Shown here: piece by piece, positions 26,059-51,548 of the stretch
How the letters are laid out: every line of letters begins with the position of its first letter
Position numbering within the stretch: position 1 is the first letter of the stretch
Made by a program: the position numbers and the translations under genes
Origin: Octopus sinensis
Taxonomy: Eukaryota
Length of the DNA stretch: 64,000 nucleotides
Direction of reading: 5' to 3'
NCBI RefSeq assembly: GCF_006345805.1
Contig: NC_043012.1
Coordinates: 49,538,001-49,602,000 of the forward strand
Notes under the pieces: generated by a model
Seen by the model: only the letters and a program-made list of their open reading frames with translations
What the model was told of the DNA's origin: nothing
Databases searched by the model: none

Positions 26059-27005
26059 TCGATGGCCCGCATGTACTAAAACGATGTCCAATCTGTTCAA
26101 GAATTCCTGCCAGATCTCAAGATTAAGAATAATTATCTACCTTCATTCAGTCATGAAGCATCTGGAAATGGTTAGATTCGGGTTTCTCCTCGTTTCTCAC
26201 GAACGAAATCATTAAAAAGCTATTATTTTTTAAAGAGAAGAATAAATGATTGCAACTGAGTGTCGACCGTAACCAAGGCATGATATCGATTATCATGATG
26301 CTTAGCTCGTGCATTATCATTATGCAAAGTGTTCGTCACCTTGTCTCTATTGTAGTCTGAAATCATTTCCTTTCATTGTAAGTGACAATATATTTTATAT
26401 TGCTGGTATATATTGGCTTGTTCGTGTATGTGTGTGTGCACGCGCGTGTGTGTACGTACGCACACAGACACATACACACACACACACGAGATAGTCATAT
26501 AGATTTTTACCTTCTTATCTAAAAAAAAAGTATCGGGTTTTGTGGTGACAATTCAATATAATTTAATACACAACAATAATTCTTAAACAACTAATTTGGT
26601 ATTGAGTGTTTCACCGTTCAGACATTAAAACTCACCATTGTCATTTTTTAATTAACGGTGATTATATCAGATAATTATCTGTTAGGCAGTCATAGTAGTC
26701 GCAGAGAAGTCATCAAACTCTTTGGTTATTTGCAAACGAAACAGATTTTTCACTGTAAACAATTTGTAGGGGTAAAGTGTTTAAGCAGATAGAGTATTAC
26801 ACTATCAGCTCATTTGTTGAGAGTTTCTAGTGATTGATGTGTTTCGTTGTTTGCTTCTACTTTATGTTCAGAAACGTGATTAATGCCAATATATGTTGCT
26901 GGACTTGAGACAAGTGTATAGTGGGATCATTGAGGTTTTTAGAGTCATAATATAGGATAATGGACATCATTCTGGTTATGTCTGGAAGTCTAAACCTATG
27001 GTAAA

Positions 27006-27184
27006 CACCGGCTGATCGCGACACCAGCGCCTGTTCTGGCACTGTGAATCTAAATATCACTGGCGATCAGATGAACCGCTGCTAGGTCTAGCGGTAGAGT
27101 GTCCTTCCTTGACAGGACCAAGGAAGGTCGAAACCACATGATTTGGTGGTCTCGGCGCTGGAGGTAACAGGATGTTTATCTCCC
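27006..27184 (+). ncRNA. Unclassified structured RNA-like island with a hammerhead-like 3' half
   Basis: GC-rich island with many perfect helices: 27012-19/27063-70, 27024-31/27154-61, 27075-80/27090-95, 27103-11/27119-27, and GAAA-ccac...gtgg-TC at 27130-51. Confidence 0.45.
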
Positions 27185-27817
27185 TGCTAAAGATACAAAT
27201 AAGAGTATATTTTGCACCGAAAAACCAATATAAGAATTTCTCTTGTGGTAACTACAGCAGGGTTGTTTGTTCTAATAAAAAATCAACGTCTAAGTGAACA
27301 TAATTATTACTTCTATAGATAAGCTCTGATTCTCTTTATGGACATTAGATTATATCTCACTAAAGTTATCTATCATTTTCAAGGATCGTGGTGAAATTTT
27401 AAAAGAGAGCGTTCAAAGAAATTATATATTTATACATTATTATATATTGTGTGCATTCTATATTTAGGCAGAGTTGCAGATATATGATGTTAGGGAATGC
27501 ATGAGAGATAAATAAAAAAAAGAGCCTGTAGCGCACGAATTTGGGCAAGTGTCCCTTGTCATGTTTTAAATGAAGTACAGTAGGGGTGACGAATAGAAAG
27601 GCAATTTCATGGCGTCGTTTTAGATAGGGTGTAATTACACACTTAGAAGACATTAAGAAGCGGCAGCTGTTGTCGTAATGAATGAAAGAATGTAATACAA
27701 AATGTTATTATTGTTTTTCATCCTCACATCAGTGATGATTGGTTAAATCTATGAAGAGCAGCGGTCTATCTATGATCGCCTTGTCATTTTTAACGACAAT
27801 CTATGTCTAATAACTTT

Positions 27818-41416: not shown

Positions 41417-43444
41417 AACCAATTTTGGAATCAATATTAAATATGTTACATATTTATAAACGAGACAGTTGGATTCGAACCAAGACAAAGTGTGCATCAG
41501 TAGTTTTTAACTCTGAATGATCTCCAAAACATATTTGACATTATTAAATCGAAAGTCTGATAAATTGGAATTGTGATATTAATGCTTACGTACATGTTGT
41601 CTTAGAAGTGAAATAATTTGAACACAAAACCTCAGTACATGAGGAGTTCACCGGCAACAGTGAAGGTGGAATCAAAAACAAAAGCATACAAAAATTTTGG
41701 AAATCTCAAAACCCTCTACAAAAAAATTTTCCTGAACGCCCTTTGGCAGTATACTGGACAAATTCATACTAGTTTCTTTAGCTTGAGGTTAGAATCTATG
41801 AAACGATATACCTTTGCATCAGGAATTAGAAAAATGAGTTCTGCAAGCTAATAAACGATTTCTGAAATAGAAAGTTCTCCTGGTAATATAATGAGGAAAT
41901 ATGTCTCATGGGGTACTTACTTGAAGTTACACGGACTGGAATATTGAGTAGTTCATTGTACTGGTTACTGGGATAGCCCCATAAACTTCTGATATCTTAT
42001 TATCTCTAGCAATAAATCAACTTAGTAACAATATCATGAAATTATCTAGTTCAGCTATCTCACTTTGTGCTGAAAGAAACGATAAATTTGAAAGTAATTT
42101 AATTTTAAAAATAACACGGAATTCTTTTCTATGTAATGAATCTAGGTTATGATAATCAGTTAGATCTTGTGTTTGAAGACAATTATTATGTTGGTCTGCG
42201 AAGCAGCACGAAAATGTACGTTTCAATATAGCATCCCTGCTCTCATTCTCCCCGTAAGCAATTTTAAAATTTCGAATTTTTTATGTTTTGGGGGATACTC
42301 ATGAATGTCACATTAACTCCTGTTCCCTTTTTGTTAAAAAAAATTAGGGCATTTGCGATCATTTAAAAGAAAATCAATGAATATTACTGAAGATAAGTAA
42401 CGCGAAACAACATTAAATTTTCGTTAGGATATTGTTTTGTTTCAACTACATTGATTTTTCTGCCAGACATTCTCACAATAAATATCTAGTTTTACCCAAC
42501 TAAAGAATGGACGTCATTGTGTTTGCGTGATATAAAGTGATATTAAGGGTCACTGATGAACCAACATTTCGACCCCGGCATCGAAACGCGTTGATGAATA
42601 ATTAGCAACCACAATGCACGTAACTTGGAGGAGAAAACTAAGTAATTAATCAGTGTTATTCTCATGGTTGTCACCTGATTAGCTACGAAGGCAATTTATT
42701 TCACTCACTGTGATGTCTCGCTTTAGAAGGTTGGCAAATTGACAACAAAGTTCGTAGCAATAACAGTATCATTTATTTAAAATTAGACAACAGGGAAACA
42801 GCAAGAAACTATGCACACAATAAACACATTGTTTGTCCTTGATTATGAGAAGAGACCTTATGTTTTAGAAGAGAATAAATGGGAATTTGTTATTTAAACT
42901 CCTTACAACTTGGTGGTAAGGAGTGTAAATATAAAGGGATTGGAACTAATTTCGAACCATGTAAGGGAATTGAAACTAGTTTCAACAAGAACTCGACCAC
43001 AAAAATTTATAACAAGGCGTCTGTTTTCTAATCAATGGTACCCAATACATGCATAACAAAAGTATGTAAGTCTTGGTAAATTTTTATGGACATTTACAGT
43101 TGTAATTGGAGAAACATTGCTTTAATTAAGAGCTGAAAATATTTCATAATTTGTTGTGAAGTCTTATAATGTTTGTTACTGACGATTAGTTATAAGGAAA
43201 ATTCCATAAAAGATGAACAAGAGTAGAGTCGGTGGAAGGATTCAGTTCTCTTTAGAGAAGTTATTCCATTAAAATATGTTCATTTCATTCATCCCGGAAA
43301 GACAAAATGAAATGTTTACTCAGGTGAAACACGAATTTAGATCGTAAAGAGTAAATGTAGGACGTTGTCTAATACGGTGCTCTGTAGATTCGGCTTTACA
43401 GCAGTATTCAGTTTCCTATATGCATACCTGTATGTGCGTGTGTT

Positions 43445-49063: not shown

Positions 49064-50056
49064 GTTTTCTTTCTTATTAGCATTGTAGAATTTATAAGTA
49101 TAGGTACGACAATAAACATCGAAACGTTTTTGGAGGTAAGTGCGGGAAACGTTGGATAACATAGATTTTGAAGATAATGGCTATAACTGGCCGATTTCAG
49201 AAGTTGCAGTTCGTACAAGTTGGATTCGTATCTCTTCCATTATAATGTTTTTAGATTCTATTAACTGACCAAATGACTCTTGATTTTATTAAGCAAGTTA
49301 GGAAGTATGAAGTGTTTTAGGAAACATTTGCACTCTACAGCGGTCATTTTGTGATCACGTGCAACTGTATTTAGGGAAGTCGTTTTATAATTGCCCAAAA
49401 TATAGATGCACTAGTTTTACTCCAGCTTGCCTATTGCAAGAAGAAGCTCCCAAAATGCAGGCAACTTGTTCATAATACTTTGAGCTAAAAAAAAGAGCAA
49501 AATATTATCCTGTTCACACTTGAACATTATTTCTCACAAAATTCTGCCACCCAACCTAATTTTATTAATGATCAAGGTATTACCTACCCTAGCTCTCATT
49601 ATTGATCCTCAAAAAAAAAATCAATTATATTGGGACATAGTTTGCCTATTAATATGATTGGAAAAAAAAACGCACTTTTCCTTCTGTGCACTCGACACTT
49701 TATACTTATATCTTTATTGCATTATTGATATTCTCCCCGTTTTCCGATTTCATGAAATGAATTCGTTTTTTGACACGGGAGAGACGTTTTCAGAAACAGC
49801 AATTTATTAAAAATCAGTGTTCAATAGAAAATATATTCTATATTCGTCATTCGTGGAATATCTGCATTGATTTCCAACATTACTACAAAGGTAACGAATT
49901 GATGAAACAGGATGAAGCCGATTTTATCCCCACCGGTACTAGAATGTCACTTATTTCATTGATGCGCGAAAATCGGAACTCGGGACAGAGAATGGCATAA
50001 TCAAGTGCCGCCAAGCGTGTATTGCCGAAGTCTAATGATTCCTAATGCTTGTATAG

Positions 50057-51366
50057 AAAGCAGGCCAAGCGTCATTCAACGAAGAAAGCGGACCAAGAAT
50101 CATTCAACGAAGAAAGCGGGCCAAGCATCATTGAACGAAGAAAGCGGACCAAGCGTCATTCAACGAAGAAAACGGGCCAAGAATAATTCAACGAAGAATG
50201 CGGATCAAGTGTCATTCAACGAAGAAAGCGGACCAAGCCTCATTCAACGAAGAAAGCGGGCCAAGAATCATTCAACGAAGAAAGCGGACCAAGCCTCATT
50301 CAACGAAGAAAGCGGGCCAAGCATCATTCAACGAAGAAAGCAGACCAAGCGTCAATCAACGACGAAAGCGGGCCAAGCCTCATTCAACGAAGAAAGCGGG
50401 CCAAGCATCATTCAACGAAGAAGGCGGGCCAATCATCATTCAACGAAGAAAGCGGGCCAAGCATCATTCAACGAAGAAAGCGGACCAATCATCATTCAAC
50501 GAAGAAAGCGGACCAAGCATCATTCAACGAAGACAGCGGGCCAAGAATCATTCAATGAAGAAAGCGAGGCAAGCCTCATTCAACGAAGAAAGCGGGTCAA
50601 GCGTCATTCAACGAAGAAGGCGGGAAAGCGTCAGTCAACGAAGAAAGCGGGCCAAGAATCAGTCAACGAAGAAAGCGGACCAAGAATCATTCATCGAAGA
50701 AAGCGGACCAAGCATCATTCAACGAAGAAAGCGGGCCAAGCATCATTCAACGAAGAAAACGGGCCCAGCATCATTCAACGAAGAAAGCGGCCCAGCGTCA
50801 TTCAACGAAGAAAGCGGACCAAGCGTCATTCAATGAAGAAAGCGAGGCAAGCCTCATTCAAGGAACAAAGTGGGTCAAGCATCATTCAACGAAGACAGCG
50901 GGTCAAGCATGATTCAATGAAGAAAGCTGGCCAAGCATCATTCAACGAAGAAAGCGCGCCAAGCATCATTCAACGAAGAAAGCGGACCAAGCGTCATTCA
51001 ACGAAGAAAGCGGACCAAGAATCATTCAACGAAGAAAGCGGACCAAGAATCATTCAACGAAGAAAGCGGACCAAGCGTCATTCAACGAAGAAAGCGCGCC
51101 AAGAATCATTCAACGAAGAAAGCGCGCCAAGCATCATTCAACGAAGAAAGCGGACCAAGAATCATTCAACGAAGAAAGCGGACCAAGCGTCATTCAACGA
51201 AGACAGCGGGCCAAGAATCATTCAAGGAAGAAAGTGGGCCAAGCATCATTCAATGAAGAAAGCGAGCCAAGCCTCATTCAAAGAAGAAAGTGGGTCAAGC
51301 ATCATTCAGCGAACAAAGTCTGCAATGCATATTTCAACGAAGAAAGCTAGCCTAGTCTCATTCAAC
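50057..51366 (+). repeat. 28-bp minisatellite/satellite array, about 46 units, consensus ccaagcatcattcaacgaagaaagcggg
   Basis: Direct inspection; no spacers. The 28-aa periodicity of the overlapping ORF equals 3 x 28 nt. Confidence 0.97.
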
Positions 51367-51548
51367 ATAAGAGCAAAGAAAAATGAAAAGTTCCGCATTC
51401 AATCTTGAGAGTAGTATATAAAGCTTTCAAAACACATGGATACAAGGAATCTCTGTTGATCATCCATATTGAAGGAAATGTTATGGATACTGGAATGCAA
51501 GGAAATCCTTTACTACGGAGAAATATCTGGTATTGGTTTCAAAACAAA

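What the first reader, a model, noticed from the sequence alone, without database searches (positions are those of the whole stretch)
27006..27184. Unclassified pseudoknotted RNA-like island with a hammerhead-like junction and an atypical core
Seen: a GC-rich island with at least six helices. The 3' part is a textbook hammerhead half: gtc GAAA ccac-loop-gtgg TC (GUC triplet at 27149-51), followed by tcgg, which can pair with ccgg (27008-11) just ahead of CTGATCGC, a non-canonical version of CUGAUGA. Stem II would be a ~110-nt branched domain. Two crossing perfect 8-bp helices (27012-19/27063-70 and 27024-31/27154-61) give a pseudoknot or an alternative fold that sequesters the core. A further hairpin (27160-83) and an AATAAA near 27275 follow. 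Inference: an expanded or switchable hammerhead variant, or a new structured RNA.
Basis: partly seen in the sequence, partly recalled or inferred. Interest (0 to 1): 0.75.

Follow-up and report, generated by a model that had tools for sequence, protein, structure and literature searches.

The report
Decayed hammerhead retrozyme copy, U3-A8 core
The island is one old, mutated copy of a 356-base non-coding repeat that is scattered through this animal genome and carries an ordinary-shaped hammerhead ribozyme motif with a known rare base swap; the repeat was likely pasted in by Penelope-type retrotransposon enzymes, this copy is predicted to be dead, and the proposed pseudoknot is not shared by its relatives.

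Summary
The helices are in the sequence, but the reading is wrong. The island is part of a 5'-truncated copy (27006-27314) of a 356-nt repeat with roughly 1,000 or more copies. Aligned copies show a compact type I hammerhead at 27103-27149: 6-bp stem I, core UUGACAA (U3-A8), 4-bp stem II, palindromic stem III, predicted cut after 27143, at the tip of a 45-bp rod. This copy has A9>G and damaged stems I and III. Copies form short tandems and back-to-back arms with 3' ends at two sites about 36 nt apart, the Penelope 'tail' footprint. Verdict: new member of the animal non-LTR retrozymes; cleavage, expression and circles untested; no partner element found. Of some interest: C3-G8, U3-G8 and U3-A8 cores coexist in the family. 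The scan's earlier notes report other retrozyme families of this kind, some with U3-A8, in this and other genomes.

The parts
27006..27314 (+). 5'-truncated copy (0.87 unit) of a 356-nt non-coding repeat; unit positions 219 to 170, counting from the base after the predicted cut
   Evidence: 82% identity to the family majority over 310 columns; unit length from tandem copies
27053..27099 (+). 5' arm of a 45-bp rod that extends hammerhead stem I in the family; eroded in this copy
   Evidence: majority fold; 80-90% of cells paired in 55 copies against 35-43% for slid partners
27103..27108 (+). hammerhead stem I, 5' strand (family CCAUCA; 4 of 6 pairs left here)
   Evidence: majority 6 of 6 pairs, 37 of 71 copies fully paired
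27109..27115 (+). catalytic core strand, family U3 U4 G5 A6 C7 A8 A9; this copy has A9>G
   Evidence: A at 27115 in 102 of 104 other copies; orthologue in organism E keeps A
27116..27129 (+). stem II, 4 bp with 6-nt loop; intact here
   Evidence: 42 of 67 copies fully paired
27130..27133 (+). G12 A13 A14 A15.1
27133..27142 (+). stem III, a 10-nt palindrome in the family majority; two substitutions here
27141..27143 (+). predicted cleavage triplet, AUC in the family (51 of 74), AUU here; cut would follow 27143
   Evidence: position inferred from the hammerhead numbering, not tested
27151..27197 (+). 3' arm of the family rod
   Evidence: 0 of 50 other copies fully paired; orthologue in organism E has the family bases at 27014 and 27066
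27103..27127 (+). copy-private 9-bp hairpin 27103-11/27119-27 that would sequester core and stem II
   Evidence: 0 of 65 other copies fully paired; pairing probability 0.89 here, above 0.5 in 0 of 57 others; 27108 is the family base in organism E
27024..27161 (+). 8-bp complementarity 27024-31/27154-61: in the family majority, but competing with the rod
   Evidence: 16 of 61 copies fully paired; pairing probability above 0.5 in 0 of 56 copies and 0.0 here (the folding program cannot form pseudoknots)
27274..27279 (+). AATAAA, a decay product of the repeat's tail, not a family feature
   Evidence: 0 of 29 other copies in the alignment
27305..27314 (+). 3' end of the copy, at the first of the family's two preferred 3' ends (unit position about 170)

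Best explanation
The island is a 5'-truncated, neutrally decaying copy of a 356-nt protein-free repeat whose unit carries a type I hammerhead motif with a U3-A8 core, a family likely spread as a non-LTR retrozyme by the enzymes of Penelope-like elements; this copy is predicted not to cleave. Mechanism, step by step. Shown: head-to-tail units, hammerhead anatomy, a long rod, even spread of 5' ends, two fixed 3' ends about 36 nt apart, back-to-back arms that mostly carry one of each. Inferred from known retrozymes: tandem units were transcribed, the hammerheads cut them to unit length (the palindromic stem III allowing two to fold as a dimer), the monomer closed to a rod-like circle, and a borrowed Penelope reverse transcriptase with GIY-YIG endonuclease copied it for up to about 2.5 turns into new sites.
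For: Repeat family: 51 matches listed at 69-87% identity, 966 first-look candidates; 202 exact matches to a 25-letter core pattern, 0 for the reversed control; rough estimate 1,150 or more copies. Hammerhead: majority pairs 6 of 6 in stem I, 4 of 4 in stem II, 3 of 3 in stem III; 35 of 74 copies not picked by the core pattern keep all 11 core tests and 18 of 74 a whole motif; the hammerhead fold of the majority lies 2.1 kcal/mol above its best fold. Positions 3 and 8 covary in these 74 copies (U3A8 50, C3G8 8, U3G8 9, C3A8 5, other 2; p = 0.0013). Tandem spacing 327-356 nt. 83 of 131 segment 3' ends fall in 2 of 18 bins; 21 of 82 loci hold both orientations; of 20 back-to-back pairs 9 have both ends in the two clusters, 8 of them one short and one long (p = 0.02), as described for Penelope-like insertions (PMC8557442, passages). 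147 GIY-YIG matches in the genome, some in open frames of about 780 codons; 12 of 30 fetched carry a minimal U3-A8 hammerhead motif downstream on the same strand, 0 on the opposite strand. Neutral decay: orthologue in organism E differs at about 35 of 305 bases in the element against about 24 of 316 in the flanks.
Against: No cleavage, transcript or circle was shown. RNAalifold found no consensus structure on 55 copies (-2.63 kcal/mol). The excess of double changes in the family structure (99 against 68.3, 0 of 500) is inflated by relatedness, CpG decay on both sides of the rod and uneven copy age; pairs with a double change were 31 against 25.7 (18 of 500). In the first 100 of 202 pattern matches positions 3 and 8 are not significantly linked (65, 13, 13, 5; p = 0.32; hand tally, test). 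Stem I has pairing probability above 0.5 in only 9 of 57 copies. In one complete double-mutant screen of a type III hammerhead only the G3-C8 swap rescued activity (PMC9901934, passages), so U3-A8 may be slow. No autonomous partner shares sequence with the unit (0 of 30 GIY-YIG loci), so solo terminal repeats of a lost element are not excluded. No target-site duplication was analysed.
Confidence: 0.85

Rival explanations
1. The unit is the pseudo-LTR of an autonomous Penelope-like element, and the copies are 5'-truncated insertions of that element rather than an independent retrozyme.
For: Same end geometry expected; Penelope-like elements of this genome carry U3-A8 motifs (12 of 30 loci); most copies are shorter than 1.5 units.
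Against: Units follow each other directly for up to about 2.5 turns with no ORF between; shared flanks among 82 loci are nested short repeats; 0 of 95 flanking ORFs hit a GIY-YIG or RT core domain (transposase, LTR-type RNase H, zf-RVT and Ig fragments only); the motif has canonical helix sizes, not the minimal form.
Confidence: 0.1
2. One reading: this particular copy is an expanded or switchable pseudoknotted hammerhead, or a co-opted structured RNA, that cuts after 27151.
For: This copy holds 3 perfect helices of 8 bp or more, more than any of 54 other copies; two or more new helices arise in only 0.22% of simulated decayed copies; organisms B and D share the private bases that could be checked.
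Confidence: 0.03
3. The hammerhead likeness of the family is incidental: the repeat is a MITE-like or fold-back element whose long inverted repeat explains the folding.
For: The 45-bp rod is an internal inverted repeat; weak covariation.
Against: The arms are internal, not terminal; units are head-to-tail; ends are 5'-ragged and 3'-fixed as in retrotransposition; all conserved hammerhead bases and all three stems stand in the right order, with C3-G8 copies present.
Confidence: 0.02

Closest known systems
Metazoan non-LTR retrozymes (coral, mussel, axolotl; Cervera and de la Pena 2020, PMC7229834; parts 2-3 of 6 and passages read)
   Same: Protein-free units of 150-450 bp with a type I hammerhead, tandem and dispersed, GC under 50%, predicted highly self-paired circle; mussel units are 350-390 bp and, like this one, lack the usual loop-loop nucleotides (the latter judged here by eye).
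   Different: Majority core is U3-A8; family is old (median 16% from majority) with arrays of at most about 2.5 units in the loci seen; expression and circles not shown; that paper's main text does not mention octopus or cephalopods.
Vertebrate non-LTR retrozymes as non-autonomous Penelope-like sequences (Li, Clavereau, Pollet 2026, bioRxiv 10.64898/2026.07.22.740005; part 1 of 5 and passages read)
   Same: Monomers, dimers and multimers; proposed origin from Penelope pseudo-LTRs.
   Different: Their link rests on co-occurrence and phylogeny; here it rests on insertion geometry, and no partner with shared sequence was found.
Hammerheads of Penelope-like elements, including the U3-A8 minimal motif of Schistosoma mansoni (Cervera and de la Pena 2014, PMC4209133; parts 1-2 of 4 read); natural U3-A8 cores (Perreault 2011, PMC3088659; passages)
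   Same: U3-A8 covariation of the C3-G8 pair; palindromic helix III suited to dimers.
   Different: Here U3-A8 sits in a canonical-size motif (6-bp helix I, 4-bp helix II) in a protein-free tandem unit, and intermediates are visible within one family.
Penelope-like insertion structure (Craig et al. 2021, PMC8557442; passages)
   Same: 5' truncation, partial tandems, adjacent inverted 5'-truncated copy, 30-40 bp tail on one end only.
   Different: No ORF; a bias for TA microsatellite targets was not tested here and is not evident at this copy.

Membership tests
Type I hammerhead (family majority) | Conserved core bases in order (3-9, G12 A13 A14, A15.1-U16.1, H17), 3-8 pair | tested here: met
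   35 of 74 copies pass all 11 tests; 67 of 74 have a standard or wobble pair at 3-8
Type I hammerhead (family majority) | Three helices round the core, helix I open-ended | tested here: met
Type I hammerhead (family majority) | Covariation support for the helices | tested here: inconclusive
   copies decay neutrally; 3-8 linkage p = 0.0013 in one set, 0.32 in another
Type I hammerhead (family majority) | Loop I-loop II tertiary contact; self-cleavage | not testable with these tools
   needs bench assay
Type I hammerhead (this copy) | Intact core and stems | tested here: not met
   A9>G, stem I 4 of 6, stem III palindrome 2 of 4; hammerhead fold 26 kcal/mol above best fold. It is a decayed homologue, not a predicted active ribozyme
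Rfam Hammerhead_1 (RF00163) | Gathering score | tested here: not met
   the genome search returned 7 other places, none of this family
Non-LTR retrozyme | 150-450 bp protein-free unit with a type I hammerhead in head-to-tail repeats | tested here: met
Non-LTR retrozyme | Highly self-paired predicted circle | tested here: met
   majority unit z -11, 66% paired (a majority sequence flatters this); single copies median z -4.0 over the 190-nt core
Non-LTR retrozyme | No LTR, primer-binding site or polypurine tract; large target duplications when present | not tested
   no terminal repeats seen; primer site, tract and duplications not searched
Non-LTR retrozyme | Expressed as linear and circular unit-length RNA | not testable with these tools
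   no RNA holder listed; only contigs of guessed RNA runs
Element mobilised by Penelope-like machinery | 5' truncation, partial tandems, inverted arm, 30-40 bp tail at one end | tested here: met
Element mobilised by Penelope-like machinery | Autonomous partner with homologous pseudo-LTR | tested here: inconclusive
   0 of 30 fetched of 147 GIY-YIG matches (5,029 candidates) share sequence

The most novel reading that the evidence does not exclude
The family is a fossil record of a ribozyme core being swapped in steps: source elements went from canonical C3-G8 through a U3-G8 wobble to U3-A8, the last step driven by deamination of the C7pG8 dinucleotide, and all three forms were mobile; subfamily markers follow the change (G8 in 10 of 21 copies of one subfamily, 5 of 21 of a second, 1 of 14 of a third). 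Natural copies would then allow a direct test of how much cleavage a retrozyme needs in order to spread.
Probability: 0.4. Interest if true: 0.45.

Novelty: new member of a known kind. Interest (0 to 1): 0.27.

Why it matters
As given, the finding is ordinary: a worn repeat copy whose chance helices looked like a new RNA. The family behind it adds an old, U3-A8 member to the animal retrozymes, one that Rfam misses and that searches for CUGANGA would miss, and its insertion ends give sequence-level support to the proposal that Penelope-like enzymes move retrozymes. It also shows that a structured-looking single copy in a repeat-rich genome must be read against its family.

Tried and rejected
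Rfam: nothing at gathering score in 64 kb; nothing over the island at E <= 10. RNAalifold on 55 copies: no usable consensus. Expression: no RNA holder listed; two runs guessed to be RNA gave 0 and 4 short pieces of other family copies; neither is evidence. Partner search: 95 flanking ORFs and 30 GIY-YIG loci gave no link; one family accession recalled from memory was not in the library. A shared flank in 5 loci looked like a longer unit but is a nested short repeat that interrupts the unit. One template-switch event as the source of the private helices: rejected for 27012-19/27063-70 because organism E appears to hold some of the changes (no difference listed at 27067-68) but not others (22 rows were not shown). 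A-to-I footprint: no excess of A>G over T>C (5.2% against 6.7%). Selection on core bases among copies: weak (A 3.8% against 6.7%, p = 0.04; G p = 0.10; T p = 0.25) and open to ascertainment. My count of the hexamer at the AATAAA position by pattern caught only 7 copies, so I used the alignment. Two helices ('long rod', 'ccgct/agcgg') were entered out of register and are not used. No host gene found: 0 of 89 window ORFs hit Pfam (89 of 102 listed). Earlier notes by sequence and near this place: none.

Full report
Setting. The window lies in a 2.72-Gb animal genome rich in simple repeats. I take the host to be an octopus: this rests on genome size, on earlier AI notes that call it octopus-like and on my recollection of the short repeats seen; no call names it. 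No Pfam domain was found in 89 of the 102 longer window ORFs that I submitted.

The observation. A search of the genome with 26950-27300 returned 51 places at 69-87% identity besides and including the window, nearly all starting near 27006. The island is thus part of a repeat copy, which runs 27006-27314.

The family. Tandem copies give a unit of 327-356 nt, 356 in the majority. From 99 loci I collected 105 distinct copies that cover the hammerhead region; 74 of the 104 others were not picked by a core pattern (37 by likeness to the window, 37 by the tail of the unit). They lie a median 16% from the majority, this copy 14.6%, with C>T 34% and G>A 29% at CpG: an old, methylated, decaying family. 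A core pattern has 202 exact matches (control 0); 13 of 74 copies match it, which gives roughly 1,150 copies or more.

The hammerhead. The majority reads as a compact type I motif: stem I 27103-08/27144-49 (6 of 6 pairs), core UUGACAA at 27109-15, stem II 27116-19/27126-29, GAAA, a palindromic stem III at 27133-42, AUC before the predicted cut (51 of 74), and beyond an internal loop a 45-bp rod, 27053-99 with 27151-97. These helix sizes are those given for canonical metazoan type I motifs, whose palindromic helix III lets two motifs fold as a dimer (PMC4209133). 18 of 74 copies keep a whole motif. U3-A8 is a known natural covariation (PMC3088659; PMC4209133), reported active in vitro in the first paper, while a full double-mutant screen of another hammerhead found rescue only for G3-C8 (PMC9901934). 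Structural support from covariation is weak: RNAalifold finds nothing; the family structure has 99 double-change cells against 68.3 shuffled (0 of 500), but relatedness and CpG decay inflate this.

Core states. In the 74 copies: U3A8 50, U3G8 9, C3G8 8, C3A8 5, other 2 (p = 0.0013); in the first 100 of the 202 pattern matches, tallied by hand: 65, 13, 5, 13, other 4 (p = 0.32). The sets overlap in part and depend on the query (G8 in 2 of 37 window-like copies, 15 of 37 tail-picked copies). Because C7-G8 is a CpG, decay turns C3G8 into C3A8, which would blur the linkage. G8 follows subfamily markers at 27046-48 (10 of 21, 5 of 21, 1 of 14). A stepwise path from C3-G8 through U3-G8 to U3-A8 fits, but its direction is inferred, with no rooted tree.

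This copy. Helix 27012-19/27063-70 is fully paired in 0 of 50 other copies and the hairpin 27103-11/27119-27 in 0 of 65; helix 27024-31/27154-61 is in the majority but competes with the rod. Three perfect helices are unusual (0 of 54 other copies), yet two or more new ones arise in 0.22% of simulated copies, 2-3 expected among the family. A contig of organism E spans the locus with 59 differences in 621 bases and has the family base at 27014, 27066, 27076, 27108 and 27115: both private helices are broken and A9 is intact there. About 35 of the differences fall in the element (11%) and 24 in the flanks (8%) (by subtraction, since 22 rows were not shown).

Mobility. In 82 loci, 5' ends of 131 segments spread over all 18 bins (4-16 each), while 83 3' ends fall in two bins, near unit positions 170 and 206; 21 loci hold both orientations; the longest run is 913 nt. 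Of 20 back-to-back pairs, 9 have both 3' ends in the clusters and 8 of these have one of each (p = 0.02; 10 of 11 if two interrupted arms are followed through). This is the described Penelope pattern of partial tandems, an inverted 5'-truncated neighbour and a 30-40 bp tail at one end (PMC8557442). Copies end far from the predicted cut site and run across it, as expected from a circular or multimeric template (inference). The genome holds many GIY-YIG ORFs (147 matches), 12 of 30 fetched with a minimal U3-A8 motif downstream, but none shares sequence with the unit.

Comparison and novelty. It works like, and by the testable features belongs to, the animal non-LTR retrozymes (PMC7229834; bioRxiv 10.64898/2026.07.22.740005); expression, circles and cleavage are untested. 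Four literature searches listed no paper on an octopus retrozyme; 'octopus' does not occur in the main text of the two retrozyme papers nor 'ribozyme' in a recent octopus repeat annotation (PMC13282606, passages). Supplements were not read and Repbase and Dfam are not on hand, so the family may already have a name. Earlier notes of this scan, seen after my own analysis of ends and core, describe several retrozyme families with the same footprint, some with U3-A8, in this and other genomes; none matched this family by sequence. They are not independent evidence, but they show that the class is common here.

Verdict. Observation partly confirmed, interpretation mostly not: a decayed copy of an old U3-A8 retrozyme family. 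New member of a known kind; interest 0.27.

Noticed in passing
window 42545-42600 (+): CUGAUGA and CGAAA with a short palindrome, flanked by helices in a non-standard order (42547-51 complementary to 42572-76; 42580-83 to 42594-97); resembles the permuted hammerheads that earlier notes report for this genome.
   Followed up: no
L100, L103, L104, L105/L106 (central Rfam hits): A second hammerhead family with a CUGAAGA core and stem II closed by GACC/GGUC, 72-88% alike, in a 431-nt tandem (L105) and a 99% inverted repeat (L103); unrelated in sequence to this unit.
   Followed up: partly
L103:2466-2566 and 2893-2996: 65% match to the 3' tail of the unit (positions about 110-217): a distant relative of the family.
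   Followed up: no
L111, L114, L123, L126-L129, L132-L136, 450-1,200 nt downstream of the GIY-YIG match: Penelope-like elements with a minimal U3-A8 hammerhead motif (UUGAUAA, 5-bp stem II, palindromic CAUG).
   Followed up: partly
L074:1879-2277, L089, L042, L055 (and L007 at another site): The same short repeat, in one or two copies, interrupts the unit near positions 92-108 in 4 of 82 loci, which suggests a preferred landing site.
   Followed up: partly
window 49951-51400: 28-bp tandem array with an open frame of 481 codons and no Pfam match.
   Followed up: no
L009:833-1213 (-): An immunoglobulin-domain exon about 250 nt from a family copy: that copy probably lies in an intron.
   Followed up: no
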